A stretch of DNA of 64,000 nucleotides from Candidatus Poseidoniaceae archaeon (GCA_965662895.1 CBFIJH010000003.1:29150-93149); one strand, 5' to 3'; shown: positions 1,328 through 59,020, counted from the first letter of the stretch. Numbers and translations: made by a program. The notes: generated by a model from the sequence alone, not told the origin.

Positions 1328-1336
1328 GGGTTCGAA

Positions 1337-2230: not shown

Positions 2231-2284
2231 TTTTTCTCAACCACTATCCATCACATTCATCATATCCTCCCTCTTCGTAGATTC

Positions 2285-3367
2285 ATGGCAGGTGCGAAAA
2301 GGACGCTGGCTACAGTTGTTGTCGTATTTCTTTCTCTCACGCTCCTCTCATTTTCGACGTCGGCTCAAGGAGGGGTTGGAAGCATCTCATTGGAATGCGG
2401 GGATGACCCTGAAATCAACGTTAAACCGGGCGAATATCAGGACGAAATCGTAGATTGTACCGTCACAAACGATGGAACGATTCTCGCTGAAAATATTGAA
2501 ATCACCGAAGAATGGGAAGGTGTTTACATCAACATGGTCATCTCTGATAACTCGTTTACACTTGAAGCAGGTGAATCTGCTGAATTTACAGTAACATTTT
2601 CTTGCGATGAGCGAACTGATGCTCAATATCAGTACGAATTTACGATTACGGCGACAGTTACTGCTTGGGGTCCACTTCCGGTCGAAAATACGCCACTCTC
2701 GCAAGTTGCAAATCATACCGGTGCTGCTACCATCCAAGAATACGGTCTTGTAACGCTGGATGTGCCCGATACCTCGTCACGAACGATGCAGACGAGCGAG
2801 GAGGTGTCCATCACCTTCCAAGTTGACAACGATGGTAATGCAGACGATACCATTGAAATTCGCATTACCAACGCAAACGAACTTGAGGAACTCGGATTTA
2901 TTCTGCAAAGCGGGGATTTCCTGCGAGCGAATGATGTCCAGTCTGGCGGTGTTTCAGATCAACTCGAGTTTATTGTTCGTGCTCCGAGTGAAGCGGAATC
3001 AGAGATTCGAAACCTCATTGTTCTTGAAGCGACCAGTTCACTTGACGGTTCCAAAGACGTTGTTGATTTCGACCTCATTGTAGAGGCAGAGCAACAAAAC
3101 GCTGGTCTTGGATCTGGACTTTCAGAAGTGAGCACGGATGACCTCGCACTCTATGGAGCCATTGGCGGTGGTGTTGTGTTAGTCTTTTTCCTTCTCATTA
3201 TCATTGGACGTGTTTCAAAACGTTCGTCAAAGAACAAGATTGCCGAGGAAAAACCTTCCGAACCACCGATTGAAATCGAGGATGAAGATGAATTGGATTT
3301 CGACCTTGATTTTGATGACGACGACTTCTTATCGAATGACCTTGATTCCATGTTGGATGATTTGTGA
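2285..3367 (+). CDS. Secreted, membrane-anchored acidic surface protein with Ig-like beta domains
   Basis: N-terminal signal peptide, two beta-rich repeats (VTNDG / VDNDGNADD), a C-terminal TM helix (IGGGVVLVFFLLIII) followed by basic residues, and an Asp-rich tail. Confidence 0.7.
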   Translation: MAGAKRTLATVVVVFLSLTLLSFSTSAQGGVGSISLECGDDPEINVKPGEYQDEIVDCTVTNDGTILAENIEITEEWEGVYINMVISDNSFTLEAGESAEFTVTFSCDERTDAQYQYEFTITATVTAWGPLPVENTPLSQVANHTGAATIQEYGLVTLDVPDTSSRTMQTSEEVSITFQVDNDGNADDTIEIRITNANELEELGFILQSGDFLRANDVQSGGVSDQLEFIVRAPSEAESEIRNLIVLEATSSLDGSKDVVDFDLIVEAEQQNAGLGSGLSEVSTDDLALYGAIGGGVVLVFFLLIIIGRVSKRSSKNKIAEEKPSEPPIEIEDEDELDFDLDFDDDDFLSNDLDSMLDDL

Positions 3368-3400
3368 CGCTGTCCGCTGATTTTGAAACATCTCAGAAGC

Positions 3401-3425
3401 CCCCTCTTTCCTGGAAAAGAAGGGG
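3401..3425. promoter_or_regulatory. Imperfect hairpin between the surface-protein gene and the fabI-PKS operon (possible terminator or regulatory element)
   Basis: CCCCTCTTTC-CTG-GAAAAGAAGGGG can pair with bulges; it lies in the intergenic region. Function is inferred. Confidence 0.3.
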
Positions 3426-3476
3426 AATACTCAAAGACGTGGTGTGCCCTGTAACACCTGCCAATCGGGGATGCGA

Positions 3477-4271
3477 ATGCTAGGTCTACGAGGAAAAACC
3501 GCTGTCGTGTTTGGTGTTGCAAGCGAAGATTCGATTGCATGGGCCATTTGTCAACAACTCGCAGAGGCGGGTGCAGACCTGTTTCTAGGCTATCAGAAAC
3601 GCTTCATGTCCCGAGTGTTTCAACTCAAGGATAAGTTGCCTGCAATCAAAGGATTTTATCCACTCGACGTTGCTGAAGATGAGACAACCCGAGAATTTTT
3701 TGAAGAATTCAAAAAGGACAATCCTGGTCGAGAAATCGATGTTCTTGTTCATGCCATTGGCTTTGCTCCACGAAGTTGCTTCGACCGACCAATTTTATTC
3801 GTTGAAGATGCGGACATCAACACCGCGATGACAATTTCAGCCAATTCTCTGCAGCGCTGTCTTAAATTTGCCCTGCCGTATTTGAGCGCAGGCTCTTCAA
3901 CAATCACCCTCACATATGCAGCTTCAACGCGTTACGTACCATCGTATGGAATTATGTCGATGGCAAAAGCAGCCTTGGAATGCTGGACTCGAGAACTCGC
4001 TTGCCACCTTGGACCACATGGACACCGAGTAAACAGCATTTCCTCAGGCCCGATTCGAACAATTGCTGCATCAGGCATCCCCGGTTTCGATCGTATTCTC
4101 GATCACGTTGAAGCCAATGCTCCTTTACGGCGAAATGTCAACCAATCTGATGTTGCAGGAACAACACTCTGGCTCGCTAGCCCCCTTTCAGCGGGCGTGA
4201 CAGGCCAATGCATCCATGTCGATGCAGGTTATTCAATCACCATGGTGCCACAGAGCATCATGGATGCATGA
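3477..4271 (+). CDS. fabI: Enoyl-[carrier protein] reductase, FabI family
   Basis: GVASEDSIAWAI Rossmann motif, VHAIGFAP, catalytic Y-x6-K (YGIMSMAK), SGPIRTIAASGI and GVTGQCIHVDAG. Start placed at ATG 3477 (3471 possible) rather than GTG 3444. Confidence 0.93.
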   Translation: MLGLRGKTAVVFGVASEDSIAWAICQQLAEAGADLFLGYQKRFMSRVFQLKDKLPAIKGFYPLDVAEDETTREFFEEFKKDNPGREIDVLVHAIGFAPRSCFDRPILFVEDADINTAMTISANSLQRCLKFALPYLSAGSSTITLTYAASTRYVPSYGIMSMAKAALECWTRELACHLGPHGHRVNSISSGPIRTIAASGIPGFDRILDHVEANAPLRRNVNQSDVAGTTLWLASPLSAGVTGQCIHVDAGYSITMVPQSIMDA

Positions 4272-4280
4272 GGTGTCGAC

Positions 4281-7200
4281 ATGTCGCTCACAACCGATGA
4301 CGGAAAACCATGCGATGGTCTCGAACAAGGTCCCTTTGAACCGATTGCGGTCATTGGCCTTGCAGCAATGATGCCCGATGCTGAAGATTTGCAATCGTTC
4401 TGGCAGAACATCATCGAATCGCATGTCAGCATCAAGGAAATTCGTGAGGGGCGTTGGCCTGGGCCTGTTGATCATTTCTGGATGGAAGGGCAACCAGGCG
4501 ATGTTGCACATGGTTACACATATTCCAAGATTGGTGCTTTTGTTGAAGGGTATGAGTTTGATTGGAGACGGTGGAGGCAACCTCCTGGAACGATTCCACA
4601 AATCGATCCTTGTCAGTTGTGGGCAGTGTCCGTCTCTGCTGCAGCTATCGAACAAGCAGGGTACGGCGAAGGGGAGAAAGAATTCCCTCGTGAACGAGCA
4701 GGCGTCGTTTTTGCAAACGCTCTCGGTGGCGAGAATCGAAACCTCTCAAACATCCGTGTTTGGTCAAACCACACCGCTGAGATAGCGAAGTCACATGGGA
4801 TGCCTCCATCGTCAAAAGATGAATTCATGGATTCCATTACTGAACATTCTCCCAAGGTTGATGAAGATACGATGCCCGGGGAACTGGCCAATGTTGTCGC
4901 TGGACGAGTTGCCAATTTGCTCGATCTACAAGGGCCGAATCATGCCATGGATGCAGCTTGTGCCTCATCGATGGCTGCAGTCTTGGATGCCTGCAGACTG
5001 CTTCAGACACGACAAGTGGATGTGATGCTTGCTGGAGCCACAGACCGAACAATGGATCCAGCCACATACGCGAAATTTAGTGCCATTGGAGCCCTCTCTC
5101 CAACCCATTCAACACCCTTTGACGCTCGTGCAAATGGCTTCGTTATGGGAGAAGGCGCTGGAGCCATGGTTCTCAAGCGTCTAAGCGATGCAATTGAGGA
5201 TGATGATACCATACACGCTGTAATTCGAGGTATCGGTGGGTCGAGTGACGGTCGTGGAAAAGGCATAACCGCTCCAAGTCAACGTGGCCAGATCCAGGCC
5301 ATTGCCCGTGCGTACAACCAAGCAGGTTATCCAGCATCCACCGTGGAGTTGGTCGAAGCACACGGAACATCGACAAAAGTTGGTGATGCTACAGAGCTTT
5401 CTACCCTTACGCGCCTATGGACCGATGCAGCATCTGGAGACAATGTTGCCGTTGGTTCCATCAAGTCCCAAATCGGTCATTTGAAGGCTGCAGCAGGCAT
5501 TGCCGGTATCATCAAATCGGTCATGGCTCTTCATCACAGAACCATCCCGCCTTCCGCAGGCTTTGAAACACCGAATCCAACAGTCGATTGGGAAAATATT
5601 CCTTTCTTTGTTCCCACCTCTCCTCTTGAATGGCCAAATCCTGAATCGCATCCACGGCGGGCCGGTGTCTCTGCCTTCGGATTTGGTGGAACGAATTTCC
5701 ATATCGCCTTAGAAGGATATGAGCCAGACTATCATCGAACAATGGCTGAAGAGTGGCAGCAACGCTGGAATGCTTATTCAAAATCATCACCGATTTCTGC
5801 TCCTTCAATCCTTGATGGTAAAGCCAAAGCGTCGCTAACGCACGATGAATTGAAAACCATCGAAGGCGGCGTTCTTCTTCTCTCAGGAGCATCCATCGGT
5901 GCACTCGTCACTCAACTTGAATCAACGTCATTTTCTGGAGCAAAGTTCGACGATGATCCTCGTGGTTTGCGTCTGTCAATGGCACTTCAATCAGCGAGTT
6001 CTTCCTTTGATCATCACCAATTGTGTCGTTTGGCCCTGATTGCAACCTCATGGGCTGAATTTGAAAAACGGAAAAAATTGGCACTCACGTCTTTGGCCGA
6101 CCCAGAAAAGTGGGGCTTCCTTCAGGCGCAAGGAATTCTCGTGAGCGATCAACCAGCATTACCCTCTGAAGCGAAAATTGCACACATGTATCCTGGTCAA
6201 GGCTCACAATATGTTGGTATGACACTTGATTTGTACCAACGATTTACTCCGGCCCAAGAAGTTTGGAAAGCCTCGGATTCAACCATGGTCGAGGTACTTG
6301 ATGGTGAAACACTTTCTTCATTCGTTTTGCGTGATGGGTTGAGCGATGATGAACGTAAAACTGCTGAACATAAACTCAAGCAAACTGAATACACACAACC
6401 TGCAATGCTGACAGCCGATTTAGCCATCGAGCATACGCTCAATGCATATGGGCATAACCCTGACATGGTTGCAGGGCATTCGCTCGGCGAATACGCTGCA
6501 CTGATGGTTTCAGGTATTCTCAACATGGATGGTGCACTGCGAGCGGCTGCGGCCCGTGGCACTGAAATGGGATCAGTTGAGATTGAAGACAAGGGACTGA
6601 TGGCGAGCGTTACAGCTCCGTACGAAGCCGTTGAGCGTATTCTTGAGGCAACGGATGGCTACGTCATTGCAGCCAACAAAAATTCTCCAAAAATGACGGT
6701 TATTGCCGGTGCAACAGAACCCGTACAAACTGCGATGAAAGCGTTTGAAAGTGAAGGATATAATTGCGTTCCACTCGCTACTAGCCACGCCTTCCATTCG
6801 AGTATCGTTGCTCCTGCAAATGAACCGCTCTACCGATTCCTTTCATCCCTGGAAATCAATTGGCCATCAATTCCAATCACTGCCAACGTTGATGGCACAT
6901 TCTATCCAAAGAATGGCTCCAATGCAACCGAGGGGATTCTGTCGAAATTAGCTCCCCAAATGGCATCTTCAGTCGAATGGACCTCCCAAATCAACACCAT
7001 GTATGATGCAGGTGCGAGAATTTTTGTTGAAGTTGGACCGAAGCGTGCGCTCACGATGTTTGCTTCGCAGATTCTTGAGGACAAGTCTCATCTTGCCATT
7101 ATGACCAATCATCCGAAACAAGGTGGAATCGCTTCTTTCCTCACTGCGATAGGAGCATTAGCACTTGCAGGGCGTCCACCGAAAATGATTCAAGGTACTT

Positions 7201-10200
7201 CGGAAGTGTTGAGCGAAGCGTTCAGGGCAGGGCCTATCGAAGCACATCAAGCATCCAGTTTACCGAAACGACCGAACCAAGAAGATCTGCGTGTTCGCGC
7301 TCGTCCATTACCAAACAAGGGCGGACAAAGCACTACATCTCCTGAGGCGCCAGTGGAAAATAACTCTGTTCAGAGCCACCCAACTGTTGCGGATTATGTC
7401 GGTGACCGAATTGCCCAGCATTGTGGATATCCTCCAATGTTCTGCCAAGGCATGGTCAACCTCCGGCTTGGTTTGGGATTGTCTGATAAATCCATCCAAA
7501 GCATTGTTTCTGGTATTGCTTCGGAAGCACAAACGGATGCAGAGGTTGACATTCATTCAGCAACGACAGCCGCTGACATTGAACGATGGGTTCGACAACC
7601 ACCTGCAGGTTGGATGCCACGGGTTCACCTTTCAAAATCATCAACTGCTCCAGCAGTTCAACAAGCGAATCACGACCCCATGGCGCAACGAAGAGCCGAT
7701 CCGTATGTCGTCACTGGAATCAGCCTCGGCCTTCCAGGAGGTGAGAGGGTTTTCGACAAGGATGTCTTTGAACGCCTGGTTCGAGGTGAGACTTGCATCG
7801 AGGAGGTTTCAGATGACTACAAGCAACGCCTCCTCGACAAGAACATCACTCGCCTCATCAAAGGACGAGACGGTTCTGTCAATATGGAACAAGCAACGGC
7901 ATTCGGAGATATTCCTCAACTTGCAGGAATAAAAGGAGCATTTGACCTTGCAGAAGAGTTTGGAATTGATCCGAAGATGGTTCTTGCCTGGGATATTACA
8001 ACCCAACTTGCCATGGCCTCTGGCCTTCTGGCACTTCGAGATGCAGGTATTCCGTTAACTCCAGAAGAACAAACAGGGAAAGGTGGTTTGCGAGTGATTC
8101 GAAACTGGCAAGTTCCGAGTGTTCATCGAGACCGCACAGGGATTGTTCTCGCATCGTGTTTCCCTGGATTGCAAATGGCCATGAAACATGCAAAATCAAA
8201 TGGCGATGATGGGGAAGATAAGTTCGATCGTCGCTATTTGTTCCAAGTTCTAACGATGGGACACTCACAGTTCGCACAATTTACGGGAATTCGGGGTCCA
8301 ACCACAACCATCAATCTCGCATGTGCATCTGCAACAGGTGCATTCCAAATCGCAGAGGATTGGCTTGCAGCCGACCGTGTGGATCGAGTTGTCATTCTTT
8401 CTGCTGATGATGTTACTGGTGACGATTTATGGGAATGGATTGGTAGTGGATTTGCTGCCACCGGTGCTGCATCAACCAACAACATTGTCGAAGAGGCAGC
8501 ACTACCATTCGACAAGCGACGCAATGGACTCGTACTCGGGATGGGTGCAGCGTCCTTTGTCGTTGAACGCAAGAGTTCAGCAGACGAGCGTGGCGTTCAA
8601 CCGATTGCAGAACTTTTGGGAGCAAAGACAGCAAATTCAGCATATCACGGAACTCGACTGGATGTTGAACACGTAGCCAGCACCGTTGATGAGTTTGTGG
8701 GAGAAATGGAACAACGGTGGGGACTCGACCGCCACAACATCGCCAAAGACCTGGTGTTTTATTCTCACGAAACATACACGCCTGCTCGTGGCGGAAGCGC
8801 ACAGAGCGAAGTGAAGGCATTACGGGAGACATTTGGCGATAGTACCGATTCAATGGTCATTGCCAATACGAAAGGATTCACCGGACATCCGATGGGTGTA
8901 GGAATCGAAGATGCAAGTATGTTCTATGGTCTCTTGACCAAACGCATACCTCCAATTGCAAATTATAAGGTACTCGATGAAGAACTCGGTGATCTCAATC
9001 TCTCGAAAGGGGGCGAGTATCCGAACCTTACCTACGGTTTGCGATTTGCCGCCGGTTTTGGTTCGCAAATTGGCCTCTCCTTTGTCCGAGCATGGCCGAT
9101 CGAAGGTGAACGAATCGATGGCAAGCGTCTCCTGGCATGGTGCCGAAATCTTGCTGGATCTCACGATATTCAACTCCGCCTCCTTGACAATAAATTGGTT
9201 GCGTATGTTGATGGTGATGACAATCTCCATGGAGGAATTCAAGGCGAGGCATATGCCATTACTGCACCGTTTGAGGGTCTCCAAACCGAGGTGACTGAGA
9301 AGAACCAGTCCGTGACTCAACCACCTGAAGTCGTACCAGAGGATGCAACACCGAAAGAAGTACCAGCAGCAACACCGTCAAGCGCTCCATTGAGCGGTGA
9401 TATGGTTGAAACCGTCATCGATGTGGTAGTCAAACATACCGGCTACCCTGCAGATTTCGTCGAATTGGATCAAGATTTGGAGGGTGAACTTGGAATTGAT
9501 ACGGTCAAGCAAGCAGAAATCATGGTTGATATTCGTCAACAATTCAATCTTCCATTGGATGAAAGTTTTGTTCTTTCTGAACACCCTACACTGAATCATA
9601 TGATCGGCTACATTCAGAGAATGCAAGGTGATGAAGCGGCTCCAGTTCCCTCACCATCTTCACCTTCCGTTGAACCTGAATCTTCTGCTGAAACATTTGA
9701 TGTTGAAGCATCGGAGGTTGAGACTCTTGACCACTCACTTCCAATATCTGATGAGAAAATGACCCAGCAGGTTATCGATGTCGTTGTCAAGCATACTGGC
9801 TATCCAGCCGATTTCATTGAACTCGATCAGGATTTGGAAGGTGAACTTGGTATTGATACTGTTAAACAAGCTGAAATTATGGTCGATATTCGGGAAAAGT
9901 TCAATCTACCCGTCGATGAGGACTTCTTGCTTTCAGAACACCCAACGCTCAATCATATGATTGGTTACATCGTTCGTATGAAAGGAGGTTTGTCCACAGT
10001 TTCTGTTCCGGACCCACAGCCGGTTTCAGAACCAACTCCGAAGCCAAAAGAAACCCCAGCTCAGCCCGTCGTGACCGATGTTGGTATCGAAGCATCATTG
10101 ATCGAAGTCGTTGTGAAACATACTGGCTACCCTGCAGATTTCATAGAAATGGATCAAGATTTGGAAGGTGAACTTGGAATTGACACAGTGAAACAAGCCG

Positions 10201-13022
10201 AGATCATGGTCGATGTTCGTGAGATATTCTCCTTGCCTGTGGATGAAGACTTCTTACTCTCAGAACATCCAACCTTGAATCATTTCGTTGCCTACATCGT
10301 GAAAATGAAGGGAGGAGCGGTTGATAGCGAATCTTCATCGGTAACTGAGGCAACTGCAGAACCTCCAGCAGCACCATCAAATGTTTCGATTGAACTGGAT
10401 GGGTGCCGAAGATGGCAGGTGGAAGTTGAGGAAGCAGAAACGATTGCGTCGACATTATCGCTTGATGGAACCGTTGTTGTCACGGATGATGGTTGGGGTA
10501 TTGCAGAACATCTTTGCGCACGTCTCGAAGCAAGAGGTCTTTCTACGGTCCGAGTAGGATTTGAAGCAGGAATACGAGATGTTTCAATACAATCCGAACA
10601 AGCTCGTACCGTTCATCGCGGTGATCCAGCAAATTCTGAGCACATTGAATCGATTACAACATCGCTCTCAACCATGAATGTGGTCGGTTTGCTGCATCTT
10701 GCACCCATGAAACTCGCATCGGCACGCTGGTCGGAGGATACTGTCCCATCTGCCCAAATCTCCCTAGCAGCGCATGGTTGGTTTGGTCTTCTCAAAGGAA
10801 TGGACTCCCGATTGGCTGAATTGGATGAAGGCATCATTGCAAGTGTCACTGCGATGGACGGGCGTCATGGAAACATTGGCGAGCGGTTCAATTCCATCCA
10901 ATGTGCAGCCTCAGGGGTTACCAAATCCTATTCCTTCGAACGTCCAAATTTGCGTTCACGCGCACTTGACCTTCATCCTGAACTTATCTTCGATGCCGAG
11001 TCGGTTGCTGAAGACATCGAAACGGAATTGTTTGAACGAGGTGGGGACGTCGAAGTCGGAATTGATCGCGATGGTCGCCGCTGGATTCTTGCTGCGTTTG
11101 CAGAGGAGGTTGTTGATGAACTTGAACCATTGAAGTCCGATGATGTGTGGTTGGTATCGGGTGGAGGCTCGGGCGTAACTGCGGCTTGCATCATAGGTGT
11201 AGCAGAGGCAAGTCAAAGTGCTGAAGCATCGTTCCATTTGCTCGGTCGGTCGGTCCTCATCGAGCAAACTGCTGATTGGTTGGATTGGAGCGAAGAAGAT
11301 CTCATGAAAGAAAAGATGGCTCTTCGAGAACGTATGATCGAAGCATCAAGTGCCGGTAAAGTCACAATGGTTGAATGGAACAATGCATGGCAGAGATTTA
11401 CCCGAAGCATGGATGTTTACAAGACACTCTCACAAATTGAGGCAACGGGTAACCGTGCCTTCTATCATTCCATTGATGTGACCGATGCTGAGGCACTATC
11501 GTCTCTTGGAGCATCACTTTCAAATCCAATTACAGGTGTTGTTCATGGGGCAGGGTTGGAGGATTCCAAACTTGTATCGGACAAAACGTGGGAAACATTC
11601 GACAAGGTTGTACGCGTAAAGATTGACGGATGGACTGCATTGATGAAAGCGGTGCAAAGTTCAGAGGGCGAATTGCGCTTTGCATCAGCATTCACATCGG
11701 TTGCAGGACGATTCGGAAACGGTGGACAAACCGATTATGCAGCTGCGAATTCGATTCTTGATGCTGAAATGGCACGCCTGACGGCAAAAGGAACATGCCG
11801 TGCAGTTGCCATTGGCTGGACAGGTTGGCGAGACGTCGGTATGGCAACGAGGGGCAGTATTGAATCGGTCTTTGAGGCTGCGGGCATTGAGACGTTGCCA
11901 GTAGAGGTTGGCGTCCAACTCTTTGTTGATGAAGCACTCCGAGGTGGAAAGCGCAGGGTGATTGCATGCGGATCGCTTGGATTGATGGATCGATTTGATG
12001 CGTTTCGAGAGGCACCGCTAATGCTACCTGCTGAAATGGCTGCTGTTATGGCAGATCCATCTCGATTTCCATTTATTGACAAAGTGCTCTCCTTCGATGA
12101 AGGCCAAATGGTCATGACACAAAGCACGCTCTCCGTTGCTGAGCATCCTTTCCTCAGCGATCACGCCATCGATGGTATCCCGTACCATCCAGGCGTCATG
12201 GCGATGGAAATGTTCGCAGAAAATGCACTGCTTCTTTGTCCAGACGCATGCCTGGCTGGTTTTGAAAACGTCACATTTGGTTTGCCAGTGAAAATCATGA
12301 AAGGTACAATGCGAGTACGAACGGAGGCGGTGGTTGATCGCACCGAAGGTGATGTAACTTGGGTAAAGTGCAGGCTTGTTTCCGACCTAACCAATTCGGA
12401 GGGCACCGTTTTCGGAGAACGCGAACATCATGAAGCTGTCATACGTTTGGTAAAGAAATCCGATGACCTGAGTACGTTCTTACAATCGGAAATCTCGCAA
12501 TTACCGACGATTGGAACGCCACCTTCAGGGCGTCTTGAACATCATGCCTCGTTCATTTACTTGCGCTATTTCCATGGCCCTCGTTTCCAATCGCACGGAG
12601 GTGTCCTGCGTGGTGTTGGAGATGCTTCACAGCCCGGAGTTGACGGTATCGCACTGATGCGTCACCAATTACCTGCTACCGATCAATTTGCTCTTGAACG
12701 AGATGGAGAGAATGTTTTGCTTGAAGCACTGCCAATGCTCATCGAGGCTGGGTTCCAAAACGCCGGTTTGGTTGCAATGGAATCAGAAGGATTCAGCAGT
12801 TTACCGGTTGGTATTGAATGGTCGACGCTACTTCGAGTTCCCGATGAAGACGAGCAATTGCGATTGCGTTCGATTCGTATCGCCTCAGAAGATGCAGGTG
12901 TAACGGTTCACGACGTTCTTGTTGTTGGACAGGATGATGCACCAGTGCTCGCATTGAAAGGACTTCGATTAAAGGCCATGGCACCCGTTCCTGATGACCA
13001 AAAATTCACGCTCGAGCGCTAA
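4281..13022 (+). CDS. Type I iterative PKS/FAS megasynthase, PfaA-related: KS-AT-(degenerate ACP)-KS-ACP-ACP-ACP-KR-DH
   Basis: KS1: DAACASS (C227), EAHGTST, KSQIGHL. AT: GQGSQ, GHSLG (S734), SHAFHS (malonyl-type). KS2: NLACAS (C1348), SHETYT (H1496), KGFTGH (H1536). Three ACPs: DLEGELGIDTVKQAE. KR: SGGGSGVT, VVHGAG, GQTDYAAAN. DH: HAIDGIPYHPG, FHGPRFQ. SD GAGGTG upstream. Confidence 0.95.
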   Translation: MSLTTDDGKPCDGLEQGPFEPIAVIGLAAMMPDAEDLQSFWQNIIESHVSIKEIREGRWPGPVDHFWMEGQPGDVAHGYTYSKIGAFVEGYEFDWRRWRQPPGTIPQIDPCQLWAVSVSAAAIEQAGYGEGEKEFPRERAGVVFANALGGENRNLSNIRVWSNHTAEIAKSHGMPPSSKDEFMDSITEHSPKVDEDTMPGELANVVAGRVANLLDLQGPNHAMDAACASSMAAVLDACRLLQTRQVDVMLAGATDRTMDPATYAKFSAIGALSPTHSTPFDARANGFVMGEGAGAMVLKRLSDAIEDDDTIHAVIRGIGGSSDGRGKGITAPSQRGQIQAIARAYNQAGYPASTVELVEAHGTSTKVGDATELSTLTRLWTDAASGDNVAVGSIKSQIGHLKAAAGIAGIIKSVMALHHRTIPPSAGFETPNPTVDWENIPFFVPTSPLEWPNPESHPRRAGVSAFGFGGTNFHIALEGYEPDYHRTMAEEWQQRWNAYSKSSPISAPSILDGKAKASLTHDELKTIEGGVLLLSGASIGALVTQLESTSFSGAKFDDDPRGLRLSMALQSASSSFDHHQLCRLALIATSWAEFEKRKKLALTSLADPEKWGFLQAQGILVSDQPALPSEAKIAHMYPGQGSQYVGMTLDLYQRFTPAQEVWKASDSTMVEVLDGETLSSFVLRDGLSDDERKTAEHKLKQTEYTQPAMLTADLAIEHTLNAYGHNPDMVAGHSLGEYAALMVSGILNMDGALRAAAARGTEMGSVEIEDKGLMASVTAPYEAVERILEATDGYVIAANKNSPKMTVIAGATEPVQTAMKAFESEGYNCVPLATSHAFHSSIVAPANEPLYRFLSSLEINWPSIPITANVDGTFYPKNGSNATEGILSKLAPQMASSVEWTSQINTMYDAGARIFVEVGPKRALTMFASQILEDKSHLAIMTNHPKQGGIASFLTAIGALALAGRPPKMIQGTSEVLSEAFRAGPIEAHQASSLPKRPNQEDLRVRARPLPNKGGQSTTSPEAPVENNSVQSHPTVADYVGDRIAQHCGYPPMFCQGMVNLRLGLGLSDKSIQSIVSGIASEAQTDAEVDIHSATTAADIERWVRQPPAGWMPRVHLSKSSTAPAVQQANHDPMAQRRADPYVVTGISLGLPGGERVFDKDVFERLVRGETCIEEVSDDYKQRLLDKNITRLIKGRDGSVNMEQATAFGDIPQLAGIKGAFDLAEEFGIDPKMVLAWDITTQLAMASGLLALRDAGIPLTPEEQTGKGGLRVIRNWQVPSVHRDRTGIVLASCFPGLQMAMKHAKSNGDDGEDKFDRRYLFQVLTMGHSQFAQFTGIRGPTTTINLACASATGAFQIAEDWLAADRVDRVVILSADDVTGDDLWEWIGSGFAATGAASTNNIVEEAALPFDKRRNGLVLGMGAASFVVERKSSADERGVQPIAELLGAKTANSAYHGTRLDVEHVASTVDEFVGEMEQRWGLDRHNIAKDLVFYSHETYTPARGGSAQSEVKALRETFGDSTDSMVIANTKGFTGHPMGVGIEDASMFYGLLTKRIPPIANYKVLDEELGDLNLSKGGEYPNLTYGLRFAAGFGSQIGLSFVRAWPIEGERIDGKRLLAWCRNLAGSHDIQLRLLDNKLVAYVDGDDNLHGGIQGEAYAITAPFEGLQTEVTEKNQSVTQPPEVVPEDATPKEVPAATPSSAPLSGDMVETVIDVVVKHTGYPADFVELDQDLEGELGIDTVKQAEIMVDIRQQFNLPLDESFVLSEHPTLNHMIGYIQRMQGDEAAPVPSPSSPSVEPESSAETFDVEASEVETLDHSLPISDEKMTQQVIDVVVKHTGYPADFIELDQDLEGELGIDTVKQAEIMVDIREKFNLPVDEDFLLSEHPTLNHMIGYIVRMKGGLSTVSVPDPQPVSEPTPKPKETPAQPVVTDVGIEASLIEVVVKHTGYPADFIEMDQDLEGELGIDTVKQAEIMVDVREIFSLPVDEDFLLSEHPTLNHFVAYIVKMKGGAVDSESSSVTEATAEPPAAPSNVSIELDGCRRWQVEVEEAETIASTLSLDGTVVVTDDGWGIAEHLCARLEARGLSTVRVGFEAGIRDVSIQSEQARTVHRGDPANSEHIESITTSLSTMNVVGLLHLAPMKLASARWSEDTVPSAQISLAAHGWFGLLKGMDSRLAELDEGIIASVTAMDGRHGNIGERFNSIQCAASGVTKSYSFERPNLRSRALDLHPELIFDAESVAEDIETELFERGGDVEVGIDRDGRRWILAAFAEEVVDELEPLKSDDVWLVSGGGSGVTAACIIGVAEASQSAEASFHLLGRSVLIEQTADWLDWSEEDLMKEKMALRERMIEASSAGKVTMVEWNNAWQRFTRSMDVYKTLSQIEATGNRAFYHSIDVTDAEALSSLGASLSNPITGVVHGAGLEDSKLVSDKTWETFDKVVRVKIDGWTALMKAVQSSEGELRFASAFTSVAGRFGNGGQTDYAAANSILDAEMARLTAKGTCRAVAIGWTGWRDVGMATRGSIESVFEAAGIETLPVEVGVQLFVDEALRGGKRRVIACGSLGLMDRFDAFREAPLMLPAEMAAVMADPSRFPFIDKVLSFDEGQMVMTQSTLSVAEHPFLSDHAIDGIPYHPGVMAMEMFAENALLLCPDACLAGFENVTFGLPVKIMKGTMRVRTEAVVDRTEGDVTWVKCRLVSDLTNSEGTVFGEREHHEAVIRLVKKSDDLSTFLQSEISQLPTIGTPPSGRLEHHASFIYLRYFHGPRFQSHGGVLRGVGDASQPGVDGIALMRHQLPATDQFALERDGENVLLEALPMLIEAGFQNAGLVAMESEGFSSLPVGIEWSTLLRVPDEDEQLRLRSIRIASEDAGVTVHDVLVVGQDDAPVLALKGLRLKAMAPVPDDQKFTLER
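9400..10310 (+). repeat. Three tandem ACP-domain repeats within the megasynthase, separated by Pro/Ser/Glu-rich linkers
   Basis: Near-identical ~75-aa units VVVKHTGYPADF.E.DQDLEGELGIDTVKQAEIMVD.R..F.LP.DE.F.LSEHPTLNH at ~9400, ~9755 and ~10085, with many synonymous DNA differences. Confidence 0.92.
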
Positions 13023-13031
13023 GGTGATGTT

Positions 13032-13793
13032 TTGACCGTCACCATTCGCTGGATACCTCTCGGGGATGAATTGCGGTGCCTTTTAGCAACGTGCCCAATC
13101 GTGGAGAAAAACCCCAACGAATTGAAACTCATTCATTGGGATGAGATCCGAACATTCAAAACGCAAAAAAGGAGCAATGAACATCTATCTGCTCGATGGC
13201 TGTTGGAACAAGCGCTCAATGAGTGGGGTGGTATTGATTGCTCGCAAATCAACGTTGCGCGAACAAACGAAAGGGCGCCCTACTTGGAAACTATCCAAGG
13301 GTTATGGGTTCAACCGACCTTACCCAACATCTCGATTTCACATAGCGAAAATCTCGCATGTGTCGCCCTTATCGACCGTGGGTGGACCGTCGGGATCGAT
13401 GCAGAACCTCTCCGACGTCCACCTCAACCTGCTGTCTACGATATGATGGCAAGAGGTGAAGAGTTGGCTCAACTCAAATCTGGGAAGCTCGATGCATTAT
13501 GGGCATGGACTTCGAAGGAAGCAATCCAAAAGGCCGCCCGATTGGGCATGCATCTCAACCCACGAAACATCGACCTTACTTCCCTTAGTGAAAAGAATAA
13601 AATTGCAATTGAAAATTTAGAATTTCAATTGGAAAATTTGTCGAATAATGATTACAAAATCATCCTTGCATGGGGGAGAGATGTTCATCCAATTCGCTCA
13701 AAGGAGGACGATCTTTTGGATGCAACTCGAGAAGCGATGCATGCAACCGATGATTGGTCGGTGGGTTGCTCCACCATAAGAAAAAGTGGATAA
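13032..13793 (+). CDS. 4'-phosphopantetheinyl transferase (Sfp/PfaE type)
   Basis: SISHS, VGIDAE and WTSKEAIQKA motifs. TTG start 4 nt after AAGGTGA; begins 9 nt after the PKS stop. Confidence 0.9.
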   Translation: MTVTIRWIPLGDELRCLLATCPIVEKNPNELKLIHWDEIRTFKTQKRSNEHLSARWLLEQALNEWGGIDCSQINVARTNERAPYLETIQGLWVQPTLPNISISHSENLACVALIDRGWTVGIDAEPLRRPPQPAVYDMMARGEELAQLKSGKLDALWAWTSKEAIQKAARLGMHLNPRNIDLTSLSEKNKIAIENLEFQLENLSNNDYKIILAWGRDVHPIRSKEDDLLDATREAMHATDDWSVGCSTIRKSG

Positions 13794-14213
13794 TCACTTG
13801 TTCCAAAAGCGACTTGACTCCCACTCAAGACCCAGGAGAATACCTATCTCCGTTAGAATTACGTAATTAAACAACAAGTATGACAAAAATGCTACGGTTA
13901 CGACTAAAATCGATGTGTTGAGTACCTTCCGTCGTTGACGCTTAACATCATCGAACGTACAAATGCCTCGATTCCGGAAGTAAATGGTGAGACCTGTAAC
14001 AATGGAAATCGATGCAACAGCGAGCATGGTTGGTCGGAACCATGCATATCCATCTTCTCCCCAATAGAGCGTGTTGGATAAGGCAGCAGCACTACTGACA
14101 CTAGCGAGCCCAAATAGAACGAGAACAACGCTTGGTAAACAACACATGGATGCTATAATGGTCGAGGTCGATACAAGTTTAACCAATGATTTGATGTTAT
14201 GTTCTTGTTGCAT
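13794..14213 (-). CDS. Small membrane protein, MerT-like heavy-metal transporter candidate
   Basis: Three hydrophobic segments, with ASMCCLPSVVLVLFG (MerT-type CC pair in TM1), WFRP and a later Cys (RGIC). Start moved to ATG 14213, which follows GGAG. Confidence 0.55.
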   Translation of the reverse strand: MQQEHNIKSLVKLVSTSTIIASMCCLPSVVLVLFGLASVSSAAALSNTLYWGEDGYAWFRPTMLAVASISIVTGLTIYFRNRGICTFDDVKRQRRKVLNTSILVVTVAFLSYLLFNYVILTEIGILLGLEWESSRFWNK

Positions 14214-14226
14214 GCTTTCAACTCCA

Positions 14227-15876
14227 TTAGAAACAATCAGCGAATTGGCTTGCTTCGCTAGGATTTGTATATGCTTGTATTGGAAGCACGTCAACACCAT
14301 CGGACCATTTCCCCATATCTGTCAGCATTCCAGTATTCACAAGATTTGCATAAGCAAAATCGGCGGTATTCACGTCTCCTCGGCTTTCAGCAACAATCCA
14401 ATCCGCTTGAGCATCCACACGTCGATAAAATGCCCAATCTGCCAGTGTATCATGCGCCTCGTTTGCTGGGATGTAGTGTGTGGCAACCAGCCGAGGAAAA
14501 CCGTAGCGATCACTTGGTATGTACAACAGCAGTGTTTGGTTCTTATCGACATTTTCAAACAAAGCATGCTGATGAACACTGTTGCATTGGCCTACTGTCA
14601 TGTCGTCTTCACTAACGACGAGATGAACAATTGTATTTTCTGGAAGATTTGAATAGTCAGGCGTCCATTCTTCTTGAACGGGTCGGGCTGCAGCCATTTC
14701 GGTGTTGACAAACAGAGTTTCACTTCCCCATCCCATTGATTGTGCCATCCCTAGAGCTTGGAGTGAATACGCTCCTCCAAGACTATGGCCTCCAATCCAG
14801 AGATGTTCAGGCATGATGGTAAGATTCCCTAGTATGTTGTCGATTTCGGTATCCCGAGCCGATGTGTTGATGATTTCATTCAAGCGCAGAAGTGCGGATT
14901 GAATCGAGAGCATTCTGGGAACATGGTGGGGCCAGTCCGACGTGCCATCAACAACGGTCGCATCAAAATCATCTGCACCTTCTGGACGGACATCTGTAGG
15001 ATACTGGATGTATGCGACGACCATTCCTTTCGCAGAGAGATGGTCGATCCAGTCAGTGTAGGAATCAATGGACGGATTGTTAAATGCATGAAACAAAACA
15101 GCGAGTGGAACGCCTTCGATTCCAGGCTCCTCTGGTAGATGAGGAAGTGTGAGATACACAGAGAATTCAATCTCATTTTCCGTTGGCCCTTGTATATCGA
15201 CAACTTCGTCTGGTAATTCATAGGCATAACGGATTGTGGTCCGATCAAACGGTCCAGCCTCAGCACCATAGCCCATTGTAGGGGCGAGTGGAGGGGTCGG
15301 TGCGATACCAATCAGTGCAGGAATCCCGGGCATGACCAACCAAGCTGCAAGAAATACAGTCATGACATGCAAGACTGCGGTTCCTTTTCCTTTCCAATCT
15401 TGATTTGAATCAGGAAGCCCAGGCGGGCCGCGAACAGCGATTAACGCTCCGAGTAAAAGAACACCATAAATCGTAGGAAGCAAGAGGAATGCACCGCGTA
15501 AGTAGCGATAATCCATGATGACGAAGATGATCCACGATGCTAGGACTGCACCAATGATACCGTAAAACAACCCTTGGATGGGTTTTGAGAGGTGGCGTCC
15601 TCGATGGTGCTGAATGGAAGAATAGATGCACAACGCAAGGAATGTTGCACAAAAGAGCGTGATGATGCCAACATTCTCTCGAAGAAGAAACGTCCATGAA
15701 AGCGTACGAACCGCTTGTGGCCAAACAGCATTTTCAACGGACTCGCCTTGAATGAGAATCAGAAGCGACTCTGCCAAGGCAACAAATGCGCCAAACGCTA
15801 TCATTGCTGTGGGAAAGGACGGTGATGAGGTGAACCGATGAAGAGGGGAAACTACCTGAGAATCCTCACCCTCCAT
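14227..15876 (-). CDS. Membrane-anchored alpha/beta hydrolase (lipase/esterase-like)
   Basis: About 5 N-terminal TM helices, then a GHSLGG nucleophile elbow with candidate Asp (SEDD) and His (ATH). Confidence 0.75.
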   Translation of the reverse strand: MEGEDSQVVSPLHRFTSSPSFPTAMIAFGAFVALAESLLILIQGESVENAVWPQAVRTLSWTFLLRENVGIITLFCATFLALCIYSSIQHHRGRHLSKPIQGLFYGIIGAVLASWIIFVIMDYRYLRGAFLLLPTIYGVLLLGALIAVRGPPGLPDSNQDWKGKGTAVLHVMTVFLAAWLVMPGIPALIGIAPTPPLAPTMGYGAEAGPFDRTTIRYAYELPDEVVDIQGPTENEIEFSVYLTLPHLPEEPGIEGVPLAVLFHAFNNPSIDSYTDWIDHLSAKGMVVAYIQYPTDVRPEGADDFDATVVDGTSDWPHHVPRMLSIQSALLRLNEIINTSARDTEIDNILGNLTIMPEHLWIGGHSLGGAYSLQALGMAQSMGWGSETLFVNTEMAAARPVQEEWTPDYSNLPENTIVHLVVSEDDMTVGQCNSVHQHALFENVDKNQTLLLYIPSDRYGFPRLVATHYIPANEAHDTLADWAFYRRVDAQADWIVAESRGDVNTADFAYANLVNTGMLTDMGKWSDGVDVLPIQAYTNPSEASQFADCF

Positions 15877-15920
15877 GAATCATAGATTCCCGTTGGGTTC
15901 AAAAAACGTCGTTTAAACTA

Positions 15921-17330: not shown

Positions 17331-17374
17331 GTCTTGGCCTGTTCGCACCCACTCAAAGGCTTTGTTGGTCGAGG

Positions 17375-17446: not shown

Positions 17447-17502
17447 ACGGTGGTAGACTGTCCGAACAAGCACTCTTTTTTGAGCGCATCGGTCAAAAGA
17501 CG

Positions 17503-58953: not shown

Positions 58954-59020
58954 GTTCAATTCGCTGAGTTCAACAAACACTCAAGCGATAGCATCAAAAT
59001 ATATCGATTTGTGGTCAGGA

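What the first reader, a model, noticed from the sequence alone, without database searches (positions are those of the whole stretch)
3477..13793. Self-contained FabI + type I megasynthase + PPTase operon in an archaeon: candidate carrier-protein-dependent fatty acid/polyketide pathway
Seen: three co-oriented genes spaced 9 nt apart, with SD-like sites, encode an enoyl reductase, a KS-AT-KS-ACP3-KR-DH megasynthase and an Sfp-type PPTase. They sit among archaeal core genes (PCNA, TFS, Nop5/fibrillarin, NMD3) with no mobile-element hallmarks. Established: archaea build isoprenoid ether lipids and generally lack ACP/PPTase-based fatty acid synthesis; KS+AT+KR+DH+ER is the full reductive cycle. 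Inference: the FabI acts as a trans ER replacing PfaD, so the operon could make saturated or partly reduced long acyl chains de novo. This would be a bacterial-like acyl-lipid route in a probable Marine Group II archaeon. No thioesterase or reductase release domain is present, so offloading and product are unknown.
Basis: partly seen in the sequence, partly recalled or inferred. Interest (0 to 1): 0.95.

Follow-up and report, generated by a model that had tools for sequence, protein, structure and literature searches.

The report
Archaeal carrier-protein fatty-acid-type synthase operon
A marine archaeon of the Poseidoniales carries an inherited three-gene operon for a bacterial-style, carrier-protein-based machine that builds fatty-type carbon chains, something archaea are generally thought to lack, and its carrier domains bear threonine where all textbook carriers bear serine.

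Summary
Three co-oriented genes, 9 nt apart, encode a FabI-type enoyl reductase (3477-4271), a 2913-aa KS-AT-KS-ACP3-KR-DH megasynthase (4281-13022) and an Sfp-type PPTase (13032-13793). They lie on a contig with PCNA, Nop5 and fibrillarin.

It is not a chimera. Composition matches the genome, and the cassette sits in the same order in 18 of 24 genera of the order, one closed genome included. The three genes are present or missing together.

In this genome they supply the only ACP domains, the only PPTase and the only true KS domains. No FabA/FabZ, PlsY or PfaD-type reductase was found.

The megasynthase is not a PUFA synthase. It matches the bacterial 'Type R secondary lipid synthase' of Shulse & Allen 2011, whose product is unknown. 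Relatives occur in other Thermoplasmatota, in MAGs labelled Asgard, and in many bacteria, often beside acetyl-CoA carboxylase genes.

New here:
- FabI was found only in megasynthase-bearing genomes (73 of 103, against 0 of 198).
- The second KS keeps its Cys-His-His triad.
- The phosphopantetheine-attachment serine is threonine in about 93% of the family's ACPs.

The most likely function is malonyl-CoA-dependent synthesis of reduced acyl chains. Product and release step are unknown.

The parts
3477..4271 (+). FabI-type enoyl reductase (SDR). Alternative starts are ATG 3471 and GTG 3444. Tyr-x6-Lys lies at residues 168-175 of the 275-aa reading.
   Evidence: Pfam adh_short_C2 234.5 bits. The best NCBIfam FabI model scores 222.5 bits, below its cut-off of 391. 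Thermus thermophilus FabI 1ulu scores 195 bits over the full length, with the catalytic Tyr and Lys aligned. Start inferred.
4272..4280 (+). 9-nt spacer with an SD-like AGGTG overlapping the FabI stop codon
   Evidence: Sequence read.
4281..13022 (+). 2913-aa iterative type I megasynthase, KS-AT-(degenerate ACP-like)-KS2-ACP3-KR-DH; a 'Type R' PfaA homologue
   Evidence: It is a single open frame. TIGR02813 PfaA scores 907.7 bits, below its cut-off of 1010.1.
4338..5564 (+). KS1 (residues 20-428), with Cys226, His361 and His400 motifs
   Evidence: Pfam. The motifs DAACASS and EAHGTST are exact in 107 of 107 full-length close homologues, and KSxxGH is present in 107 of 107.
6186..7172 (+). Acyltransferase (residues 636-964) with GHSLGE and HAFH motifs. 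Reading these as malonyl-specific is from recall.
   Evidence: Pfam Acyl_transf_1 126.6 bits. TIGR00128 FabD 190 bits, below its cut-off. Both motifs are exact in 107 of 107.
7707..9086 (+). KS2 (residues about 1143-1602). It sits where Shulse & Allen wrote 'CLF', but keeps the Cys-His-His triad.
   Evidence: PF00109 57.9 bits. In the FabF alignments the Cys, His and His align. Cys, His and Glu are invariant in 11 diverse sequences. Motifs are present in 107 of 107.
9402..10316 (+). Three tandem ACP domains (1708-1783, 1825-1905, 1939-2012). Each reads LGIDTV, with Thr1741, Thr1860 and Thr1969 at the canonical phosphopantetheinyl-Ser position.
   Evidence: Pfam PP-binding, 3 stretches. PDB ACP alignments place T on the DS(L/I) serine.
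11133..11840 (+). Ketoreductase catalytic subdomain (about 2285-2520), with GGGSGVT and YAAAN motifs. The structural subdomain at about 2080-2284 is inferred.
   Evidence: Pfam KR 89-91 bits. Motifs are present in 107 of 107.
12072..12983 (+). PKS-type dehydratase (2598-2901) with HxxxGxxxxP at residue 2628 and ExxxQ at residue 2822
   Evidence: PKS_DH_N 33-36 bits; PS-DH 18-21 bits, below its cut-off. HxxxGxxxxP is present in 105 of 107.
13023..13031 (+). 9-nt spacer with an SD-like AGGTGAT overlapping the stop codon; the PPTase starts at TTG
   Evidence: Sequence read.
13032..13793 (+). Divergent Sfp-type (group II) 4'-phosphopantetheinyl transferase; the only PPTase found in the genome
   Evidence: Pfam ACPS 35 bits and AASDHPPT_N 28.5 bits. 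It is the only PF01648 hit in the genome. There is no PDB hit by sequence. The AlphaFold2 model (pLDDT 86.9) matches AASDHPPT, Sfp, PptAb, PcpS and PptT at E 1e-9 to 1e-6. G121, D123, E125, W159, K162, E163 and K167 are invariant.

Best explanation
The three genes form one vertically inherited operon that encodes a working, ACP-dependent, iterative type I synthase of acyl chains.

Proposed mechanism:
1. The PPTase primes the three tandem ACPs. By inference it does so on Thr1741, Thr1860 and Thr1969, which occupy the usual serine position.
2. The AT loads malonyl units made by the cell's biotin carboxylase system.
3. Two catalytically intact KS domains condense. The KR and the PKS-type DH then produce trans-2-enoyl-ACP.
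4. The separately encoded FabI reduces it in trans, closing a full fatty-acid-type cycle.

The product is most likely a reduced, largely saturated, long acyl chain. It leaves without a thioesterase, probably by direct transfer through a PlsC/AGPAT-type acyltransferase onto a glycerol-3-phosphate-based lipid.

The system is an archaeal, FabI-coupled variant of the bacterial 'Type R' PfaA-like secondary lipid synthase. It is accessory: streamlined genera of the order lack it.

Shown: genes, domains, catalytic motifs, inheritance and co-distribution. Inferred: activity, priming on Thr, product and off-loading.
For: Domains and motifs are intact and conserved in 105-107 of 107 full-length close homologues.

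Distribution across the order, in the same 201 genomes:
- Megasynthase 134, FabI 132, PPTase 127.
- All three are present in 18 genera. None of the three was found in five genera. A sixth (g19) gave only one weak megasynthase hit (5e-30) in 14 genomes.
- The order FabI-megasynthase-PPTase is kept, for example in the closed genome G003.

The KS2 tree recovers the order as one group (SH-aLRT 90), split by family, which fits vertical descent.

In the own genome (92% complete):
- The only PP-binding domains over the cut-off are these three.
- This is the only PPTase.
- Both strong ketoacyl-synthase (PF00109) hits lie in the megasynthase. The other two barely pass the cut-off and cover only 45-54 of the profile's 252 positions, in 403-aa frames that I took to be thiolase-like but did not check.
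- No FabA/FabZ, no PlsY and no NMO/PfaD-type ER were found.

FabI coupling across the phylum: 73 of 301 genomes have FabI at E<=1e-30. All 73 are among the 103 genomes with the KS2 megasynthase, and none among the 198 without it. This includes families where the two genes lie on different contigs.

Malonyl-CoA link: ACC genes flank the megasynthase in other Thermoplasmatota and in 28 of 50 bacterial loci with enough downstream sequence. The own genome has three carboxyltransferases and a BCCP.

Thr as acceptor: the site is T in 363 of 364 ACPs of close homologues. In the 50%-identity representatives it is T in 330 and S in 19 of 354. S and T mix within single proteins and between Poseidoniales genera.

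Lipid context: a GpsA-like G3P dehydrogenase is present and the G1P-dehydrogenase family was not found, as reported for the order in PMC6461757 (passages). Three AGPAT-family acyltransferases are present.
Against: - There are no expression, protein or product data.
- The cassette was not found in six genera of the order, yet these keep the 261-aa PlsC (195 of 201 genomes, 24 of 24 genera) and the carboxyltransferase (201 of 201). Neither gene therefore depends on the cassette, and bulk membrane supply cannot be its universal role.
- In bacteria the family is classed as a 'secondary' lipid synthase with unknown product. No FabI was found beside it in 50 of 50 bacterial loci.
- 30 of the 103 megasynthase-bearing Thermoplasmatota gave no FabI.
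- No release enzyme has been identified. The only acyltransferase whose full-length orthologues are confined to cassette-bearing genera (533 aa) is missing from four of those genera.
- From recall, Ser-to-Thr carrier mutants are generally poor PPTase substrates, so priming on Thr is unproven.
- FabI scores below every NCBIfam equivalog cut-off.
Confidence: 0.6

Rival explanations
1. The cassette makes a specialised secondary lipid or polyketide-like product, for example a hydroxy, partly unsaturated or very-long-chain lipid for a surface, storage or signalling role. It does not make general fatty acids for membrane phospholipids. FabI would act only in some cycles.
For: - The family was defined as a 'secondary lipid synthase' in bacteria that have their own fatty acid synthesis.
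- Tandem ACPs and two KS domains are hallmarks of PUFA-like specialised synthases.
- The cassette is dispensable in six genera.
- PlsC and ACC do not track it.
- 30 of 103 archaeal carriers gave no FabI.
Against: - FabI is the most conserved of the three genes: 83% identity within the family and 72% across families, against 70% and 57% for the megasynthase. It is strictly nested within megasynthase carriers.
- No FabA-type isomerising DH is available to introduce cis double bonds.
- The recurrent ACC linkage suggests high malonyl-CoA flux.
- These archaea have no other ACP-dependent route.
Confidence: 0.27
2. The ACPs are not phosphopantetheinylated, because Thr cannot accept the arm. The megasynthase would then be inactive, or would work by a non-canonical carrier chemistry.
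For: The canonical Ser is absent from all three ACPs. From recall, S-to-T carrier mutants are usually unmodified by AcpS or Sfp.
Against: - Thr, or rarely Ser, holds this position in 349 of 354 ACPs of diverse family members and in 235 of 237 ACPs of the bacterial loci. Only 3 other residues and 2 gaps were seen.
- A PPTase gene is adjacent or fused in Poseidoniales and in at least 22 of 50 bacterial loci.
- All catalytic motifs are under clear conservation.
Confidence: 0.06
3. FabI is only a neighbour. It would serve a CoA-based, ACP-independent archaeal fatty acid or other reductive pathway, while the megasynthase alone makes an unsaturated polyene-type chain.
For: - The archaeal ACP-independent synthesis proposed in PMC3533463 and in 10.1101/2024.07.05.601840 uses SDR-type reductases.
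- Bacterial loci work without an adjacent FabI.
Against: - FabI is absent from all 198 sampled Thermoplasmatota that lack the megasynthase.
- It is lost together with the megasynthase inside the order.
- It shares an operon with 9-nt spacing.
- Its best matches are enoyl-ACP reductases.
Confidence: 0.05
4. The region is an assembly chimera or a recent bacterial insert.
For: Its nearest non-archaeal relatives are bacterial, and the KS2 tree places Poseidoniales apart from the other archaeal clade. An old inter-domain transfer is therefore likely.
Against: - GC is 0.489 against 0.481 for the genome. The tetranucleotide distance is ordinary: 27% of 169 genome windows lie further from the genome mean.
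- The same three genes sit in the same order in 18 genera, including a one-contig genome.
- Contigs from 4 runs of one study cover positions 1-18000 evenly and bridge the gene junctions. These runs may be the source samples, so this is not independent evidence.
Confidence: 0.02

Closest known systems
'Type R' secondary lipid synthase gene cluster (Shulse & Allen 2011, PLoS One, PMC3098273; passages read)
   Same: - One pfaA homologue with a KS-MAT-'CLF'-ACP(3-6)-KR order, followed by a PPTase gene.
- Recurrent association with acetyl-CoA carboxylase genes.
- Relatives found here lie in the same bacterial lineages: Korobacteraceae, Roseiflexaceae, other Chloroflexota and Acidobacteriota.
   Different: - The host is an archaeon; the word 'archaea' does not occur in that paper.
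- A FabI gene is part of the operon here, against 0 of 50 bacterial loci.
- The 'CLF' position holds a KS with an intact Cys-His-His triad.
- A PKS-type DH follows the KR.
- The product is unknown in both.
- The Thr carrier site is shared with the bacterial relatives but is not mentioned in the paper ('threonine' occurs 0 times).
PfaA / bacterial PUFA synthase pfaABCDE (NCBIfam TIGR02813)
   Same: It is the best-scoring curated family (907.7 bits). It shares the KS-MAT, tandem ACPs and KR-DH, and has an Sfp-type PPTase partner.
   Different: - The score is below the curated cut-off of 1010.1.
- An extra KS sits between AT and the ACPs.
- There is no PfaB, no PfaC (no FabA-type DH; no further true KS) and no PfaD.
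- The ER is a FabI-type SDR.
Bacterial type II FAS enoyl-ACP reductase FabI (e.g. Thermus thermophilus 1ulu)
   Same: Full-length alignment at 195 bits, with the Tyr-x6-Lys catalytic pair and the glycine-rich dinucleotide fold conserved.
   Different: It is below all NCBIfam equivalog cut-offs. Here it would serve a type I megasynthase in an organism where no other FAS II part was found.
Sfp / AASDHPPT-type (group II) phosphopantetheinyl transferases
   Same: Matching fold (Foldseek E 9e-10 to 1e-6, TM about 0.55-0.65). The GxDxE and WxxKExxxK motifs are invariant (the motif definitions are recalled).
   Different: Only 16-18% identity, with no PDB hit by sequence. It evolves fast: 45% identity within the family. 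Its presumed acceptor residue is Thr, not Ser.
Archaeal ACP-independent fatty acid synthase complex (ketothiolase/DUF35-based; bioRxiv 10.1101/2024.07.05.601840, passages read)
   Same: Both address de novo fatty acid synthesis in archaea.
   Different: That system is CoA-based, without ACP, PPTase or malonyl-ACP. [quoted passage not shown]

Membership tests
PUFA synthase subunit PfaA (TIGR02813) | Whole-protein score at or above the curated cut-off (1010.1 bits) | tested here: not met
   907.7 bits.
PUFA synthase subunit PfaA (TIGR02813) | Partner genes pfaB, pfaC (KS-CLF with FabA-type DH domains) and pfaD (NMO-type ER) | tested here: not met
   In the own genome (92% complete) there is no FabA family hit and no NMO family hit. 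Outside the megasynthase there are only two marginal, partial PF00109 hits.
PUFA synthase subunit PfaA (TIGR02813) | KS-MAT-ACPn-KR-DH domain order with tandem ACPs | tested here: inconclusive
   Tandem ACPs and KR-DH are present, but a second KS is inserted between AT and the ACPs.
Type R secondary lipid synthase cluster (Shulse & Allen 2011) | Single pfaA homologue with KS-MAT-CLF-ACP(3-6)-KR | tested here: met
   KS-AT-KS2-ACP3-KR(-DH). KS2 occupies the 'CLF' position but keeps its active-site Cys.
Type R secondary lipid synthase cluster (Shulse & Allen 2011) | PPTase gene directly downstream | tested here: met
   13032-13793, 9 nt after the stop codon. The arrangement is conserved across the order.
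Type R secondary lipid synthase cluster (Shulse & Allen 2011) | KS phylogeny groups with the named Type R genomes (Koribacter, Solibacter, Elusimicrobium, Roseiflexus) | tested here: inconclusive
   The five named genomes were not fetched. Relatives from Korobacteraceae, Roseiflexaceae (Kouleothrix) and Oscillochloris share the architecture and fall in the same KS2 tree.
FabI enoyl-ACP reductase | SDR fold with the catalytic Tyr-x6-Lys aligned to solved FabI structures | tested here: met
   Alignment to 1ulu at 195 bits. The motif starts at residue 168.
FabI enoyl-ACP reductase | Score over an NCBIfam FabI equivalog cut-off | tested here: not met
   The best score is 222.5 bits against a cut-off of 391.
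FabI enoyl-ACP reductase | Reduces trans-2-enoyl-ACP | not testable with these tools
   Supported only by co-distribution with the ACP-bearing megasynthase.
Sfp-type (group II) PPTase | Two-subdomain fold of about 230 aa matching Sfp/AASDHPPT | tested here: met
   Model pLDDT 86.9. Foldseek top hits are 2cg5, 4mrt, 6qxr, 7bcz and 1qr0.
Sfp-type (group II) PPTase | Acceptor is the Ser of the carrier's (D/G)xDS(L/I) motif | tested here: not met
   All three ACPs read GIDTV. PDB ACP alignments put Thr at the Ser position.
Integrated type I FAS (animal or fungal) | ER, and TE or MPT release, within the megasynthase chain | tested here: not met
   No ER or TE domain was detected in the 2913-aa protein. 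The ER is a separate gene.

The most novel reading that the evidence does not exclude
This cassette is the missing ACP-dependent fatty acid synthase of planktonic archaea. It would supply ester-linked acyl chains for glycerol-3-phosphate-based, bacterial-type or mixed membranes in Poseidoniales. Sister versions in other Thermoplasmatota and in Asgard-labelled genomes would do the same.

Its carrier domains would be phosphopantetheinylated on threonine by a co-evolving divergent PPTase. To my recollection, O-phosphopantetheinyl-threonine is not on record as a carrier-protein modification.
Probability: 0.25. Interest if true: 0.95.

Novelty: new variant of a known kind. Interest (0 to 1): 0.8.

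Why it matters
Poseidoniales are among the most abundant archaea of the surface ocean. Their membrane lipids are unresolved: none of 270 MAGs encodes G1P dehydrogenase, while G3P dehydrogenase and PlsC homologues are present (PMC6461757 and PMC6962369, passages).

Current literature holds that archaea lack FAS I, lack a complete FAS II and almost always lack ACP and PPTase (10.1101/2024.07.05.601840; PMC3533463).

A conserved three-gene, carrier-protein-based synthase with its own enoyl reductase gives that 'lipid divide' question a concrete target that can be expressed. Relatives in MAGs labelled Heimdallarchaeota or Asgard bear on how the eukaryotic lineage could have come to use acyl lipids.

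Separately, the near-universal Thr at the carrier attachment site of a family spanning at least 599 genomic loci is a testable biochemical anomaly. It may also explain why generic PPTases could fail in heterologous expression.

Tried and rejected
Chimera or contamination: rejected.

PUFA synthase membership: rejected.

KS2 as an inactive chain-length factor: rejected, since the Cys-His-His triad is conserved.

ACC as a cassette-specific partner in the order: rejected. The carboxyltransferase next to the 533-aa acyltransferase is in 201 of 201 genomes, and the adjacency is genus-specific.

The 261-aa PlsC as a cassette-specific off-loader: rejected, at 195 of 201 genomes and 24 of 24 genera. 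The 533-aa acyltransferase remains only a weak candidate. Its full-length orthologues occur in 14 of the 18 cassette-bearing genera and in none of the cassette-less ones, by my reading of the E-value tiers. NCBIfam and PDB gave no assignment.

Expression: no RNA holder was listed for 4281-13022. This says nothing either way.

Complex prediction was not run. An enzyme with its carrier is a poor use of that tool.

Literature: ten searches found no paper describing this megasynthase in Marine Group II or Poseidoniales, and none describing a Thr carrier site.
- Searches were loosely set (2 of 3 terms) and uninformative.
- Rinke 2019 (PMC6461757) and Tully 2019 (PMC6336850) were searched by term: 'polyketide' and 'acyl carrier' do not occur in either main text.
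- BGC surveys only say generically that Thermoplasmatota and Asgardarchaeota encode PKSs (PMC11051675).
- Villanueva et al. 2017 is not held.
The supplementary figures and tables of Rinke 2019, Tully 2019 or Villanueva 2017 may list these genes.

Caveats on method:
- The KS2 tree is a 'quick' tree, midpoint-drawn, with three long branches. No donor or direction of transfer is claimed.
- Asgard and Heimdallarchaeota labels are NCBI names of MAG proteins and were not checked for binning.
- PPTase detection in bacterial loci used one divergent query, so 22 of 50 is a lower bound.

Full report
WHAT IS THERE. The window holds three co-oriented open frames: 3444/3477-4271, 4281-13022 and 13032-13793. 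Both gaps are exactly 9 nt and carry SD-like AGGTG and AGGTGAT.

The first gene most likely starts at ATG 3471 or 3477. Orthologue alignments begin at residues 8-12, and alignments pushed further upstream cross stop codons.

Pfam and NCBIfam give the following:
- A FabI-type SDR (adh_short_C2, 234 bits).
- A 2913-aa megasynthase: KS (20-428), AT (636-964), a second KS (about 1143-1602), three PP-binding domains, KR and a PKS-type DH.
- A PPTase (ACPS 35 bits, AASDHPPT_N 28.5 bits).

No thioesterase or reductase release domain was seen.

IS IT ARCHAEAL AND NATIVE. The same contig carries a TBP-like gene, PCNA, Nop5 and fibrillarin. Homologues 86-89% identical over the second-KS region are named Candidatus Poseidoniaceae or Thermoplasmatota by NCBI.

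The window is C3:29150-93149 of a 1.86-Mb genome in 26 contigs, 92% complete and 0.04% contaminated.

Composition is unremarkable. GC of the cassette is 0.489 against 0.481 for the genome. Its tetranucleotide distance from the genome mean is ordinary: 27% of 169 equal-sized genome windows lie further away.

Contigs from four runs of one study cover positions 1-18000 in all 30 bins and bridge the gene junctions. For example, 3591-7255 spans FabI into the megasynthase, 10148-14799 spans the megasynthase, the PPTase and the downstream flank, and 2756-3520 spans the upstream flank into FabI. These runs may be the source samples, so I do not count them as independent.

The decisive evidence is comparative, from 201 genomes of the order:
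- The megasynthase is found in 134: family f1 98 of 99, f2 2 of 2, f3 33 of 99.
- FabI is found in 132 at E<=1e-30.
- The PPTase is found in 127.
- All three are present in 18 genera. None of the three was found in five small-genome genera of f3. A sixth (g19) gave only one weak megasynthase hit (5e-30) in 14 genomes.
- FabI is always directly upstream and the PPTase directly downstream. This holds in a one-contig genome (G003) and in the f2 and f3 loci I fetched.

The misses are explained as follows. G092 lacks FabI at a contig end. G143 has only the weak 5e-30 hit. G168 (83% complete) lacks all three. The PPTase was missed in seven genomes where it is very divergent or cut off.

A KS2 tree recovers the order as one group (SH-aLRT 90), split by family. 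The chimera reading is rejected.

WHAT THE GENOME OFFERS AROUND IT. In this genome:
- The three ACPs are the only PP-binding domains above the cut-off.
- The neighbouring gene is the only PPTase.
- Both strong ketoacyl-synthase (PF00109) hits lie in the megasynthase. The other two barely pass the cut-off, cover only 45-54 of the profile's 252 positions, and lie in 403-aa frames that I took to be thiolase-like but did not check.
- FabA/FabZ, PlsY and the NMO (PfaD/FabK-type) reductase family were not found. All three statements are subject to 92% completeness.
- There are three carboxyltransferases and a BCCP, three AGPAT-family acyltransferases, a GpsA-like G3P dehydrogenase and GGGPS. No member of the G1P-dehydrogenase family was found. 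This reproduces what Rinke et al. report for the order (PMC6461757, passages).

WHAT FAMILY IT IS. The best curated model is PfaA, at 907.7 bits against a cut-off of 1010.1. PfaB, PfaC and PfaD are missing and an extra KS is present, so it is not a PUFA synthase.

An exhaustive search with the second KS domain found 544 clusters (50% identity) at E<=1e-30. Most full-length members share KS-AT-KS2-ACPn-KR-DH.

Named members include Euryarchaeota and Thermoplasmatota MAGs, an 'Asgard group archaeon', two 'Candidatus Heimdallarchaeota' MAGs, Polyangiaceae and Bradymonadaceae/Lujinxingiaceae. A scan of species-representative genomes hit at least 599 stretches. The best 80 were all bacterial: Chloroflexota, Myxococcota, Acidobacteriota including Korobacteraceae, Actinomycetota, Gemmatimonadota, Calditrichota and Verrucomicrobiota.

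Shulse & Allen 2011 described exactly this arrangement as their 'Type R' secondary lipid synthase. It is one pfaA homologue, KS-MAT-CLF-ACP(3-6)-KR, with a PPTase gene downstream, found in Koribacter, Solibacter, Elusimicrobium and Roseiflexus. In Koribacter an ACC gene lies inside the cluster, and the product is unknown. The paper does not mention archaea (PMC3098273, passages).

My loci extend this picture. Of 50 bacterial loci with a complete 3' end and at least 3 kb downstream:
- 22 show a recognisable PPTase, sometimes fused to the C-terminus.
- 28 show ACC genes, and 11 show both.
- 0 show FabI.

In other Thermoplasmatota families the megasynthase is flanked by a carboxyltransferase, BioY and biotin carboxylase. 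In one case it is flanked by a 2142-aa fused ACC with a eukaryote-type central domain.

Across 301 genomes of the phylum, 103 carry the KS2 megasynthase: f1 41 of 41, f10 9 of 9, f19 21 of 24, f28 5 of 6, f29 10 of 10. The same-class family f4 has 0 of 8.

In the KS2 tree the Poseidoniales clade is separate from a clade of other Thermoplasmatota plus the Asgard-labelled sequences (support 93). That second clade is sister to a 62-row bacterial clade (97*). The root is unknown. At least one old inter-domain transfer is likely, but I claim no direction.

HOW IT MOST LIKELY WORKS. Catalytic motifs are intact and conserved in 105-107 of 107 full-length close homologues. They are KS1 Cys/His/His, AT GHSLGE and HAFH, KS2 Cys/His/His, KR GGGSGVT and YAAAN, and DH HxxxGxxxxP. 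Alignment to FabF structures puts the KS2 Cys, His and His on the catalytic triad, and they are invariant in eleven diverse sequences. The 'CLF' of Type R is therefore a competent KS here.

FabI aligns over its full length with Thermus FabI, with Tyr-x6-Lys in place.

The PPTase has no sequence match in the PDB. Its AlphaFold2 model (13-sequence alignment, pLDDT 86.9) matches AASDHPPT, Sfp, PptAb, PcpS and PptT (E 9e-10 to 1e-6). The GxDxE and WxxKExxxK residues are invariant.

KS, AT, KR, DH and ER together make a complete reductive cycle.

The strongest new support for FabI as the trans-ER comes from the phylum sample. All 73 genomes with FabI at E<=1e-30 are among the 103 with the megasynthase, and none of the 198 without it has FabI. 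In family f29 the two genes lie on different contigs, so the link does not rest on adjacency alone.

Against generality, 30 carriers (f19 21, f28 5, f36 4) showed no FabI, and bacterial loci have none nearby. These bacteria presumably use their own FAS II reductase or make a less reduced product. That last point is inference.

THE THREONINE. All three ACPs read LGIDTV. Alignments to solved ACPs place Thr1741, Thr1860 and Thr1969 on the serine that normally carries phosphopantetheine.

In a profile alignment of 721 ACP domains, the site reads as follows:
- Close homologues: T in 363 of 364 (one gap).
- Representatives at 50% identity: T in 330, S in 19, another residue in 3 and a gap in 2, of 354.

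In the fetched loci:
- Bacterial loci: T in 235, S in 1.
- Other Thermoplasmatota: T in 26, S in 2.
- Five Poseidoniales loci: T in 8, S in 4. Two f3 genera read S in both ACPs.

S and T also mix within single proteins. A position that tolerates only the two hydroxyl residues across such divergence, beside a conserved PPTase gene, is best read as the attachment site. Attachment to Thr is inference, and I could find no paper on it (recall).

WHAT IT IS FOR. The product and its release are unknown. The cassette is dispensable in six genera, which nevertheless keep the 261-aa PlsC (195 of 201 genomes) and the carboxyltransferase (201 of 201). It therefore cannot be the only source of acyl chains for the order, if acyl lipids are made at all.

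Only the 533-aa AGPAT-like protein has full-length orthologues confined to cassette-bearing genera: 14 of 18, and none of the six cassette-less genera, by my reading. In this genus it lies next to a carboxyltransferase and a BCCP. That is a lead, not a finding.

I put 0.6 on a working ACP-dependent synthase of reduced acyl chains with FabI as its ER. Within that, membrane fatty acids and a specialised lipid are roughly evenly matched.

KNOWN OR NEW. The megasynthase-plus-PPTase unit is a known bacterial kind (Type R).

I found the following described nowhere in ten searches (two searches were too loose to be informative) or in the main texts I searched:
- Its presence as a conserved, vertically inherited operon in Poseidoniales.
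- Its spread in other Thermoplasmatota and in Asgard-labelled MAGs.
- The recruitment of FabI.
- The active second KS.
- The Thr carrier site.

Recent literature states that archaea seem to lack FAS I and a complete FAS II, and that ACP and its synthase are absent from nearly all of them (10.1101/2024.07.05.601840; PMC3533463). BGC surveys mention PKSs in these phyla only generically (PMC11051675). [quoted passage not shown] 2017 (PMC6962369). I could not read that paper, and supplements are closed, so an earlier listing cannot be excluded.

VERDICT. This is a new variant of a known kind, with interest 0.8.

Noticed in passing
window 7404-7592 (megasynthase residues about 1042-1104): Between AT and KS2 lies a weak, degenerate ACP-like stretch (8 bits against the family's own ACP profile). 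It has Asp where the Thr or Ser attachment residue would be. Several relatives have a full ACP at this position.
   Followed up: partly
L039:10833-17261 (G253, another Thermoplasmatota family, f19): A 2142-aa single-chain acetyl-CoA carboxylase (BC-BCCP-ACC_central-CT, the eukaryote-type layout) lies directly downstream of the megasynthase in an archaeal genome. Large BC-containing ORFs of about 1700-1900 aa follow the megasynthase in several bacterial loci as well.
   Followed up: partly
G000 C12:31150-34988 (outside the window; loci L026 and L018): A 533-aa AGPAT-family acyltransferase sits directly upstream of a carboxyltransferase and a BCCP. Its full-length orthologues were seen only in cassette-bearing genera (14 of 18). 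A weaker paralogue is universal.
   Followed up: partly
window 13662-13793 (PPTase C-terminus) and alignment A2: PPTases of family f1 carry a conserved C-terminal extension of about 45 aa (LLDATRxAM...W.VGC.T.R) that is absent from family f3 PPTases. The last 10 residues are modelled with low confidence.
   Followed up: no
L058, L092, L100, L105, L120 (bacterial loci): In some Myxococcota or Pseudomonadota-labelled MAGs the PPTase is fused to the C-terminus of the megasynthase (…KR-DH-PPT), and an extra ACP sits between AT and KS2. From recall, the domain order resembles enediyne PKSE.
   Followed up: no
L047 (G015, genus g18) and L049 (G009, genus g15): These two Poseidoniales genera have Ser, not Thr, at the ACP attachment site in both of their ACPs. 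In L049 the ORF downstream of the megasynthase (203 aa) gives no Pfam PPTase hit.
   Followed up: partly
window 15921-23127, minus strand: An M28 peptidase (492 aa) and a very large S8 subtilase (1874 aa) lie just downstream. This fits the proteolytic lifestyle described for the group.
   Followed up: no
window 13794-15876 (minus strand) and 58802-63910 (plus strand): Two ORFs directly after the cassette (168 and 549 aa) gave no Pfam family. A 1702-aa ORF near the window's end was not annotated.
   Followed up: no
G000 whole genome: A GpsA-type G3P dehydrogenase and GGGPS are present, while the G1P-dehydrogenase family (Fe-ADH_2) was not found, although the control search rang in all four archaeal control genomes. 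This repeats the published pattern for the order.
   Followed up: yes
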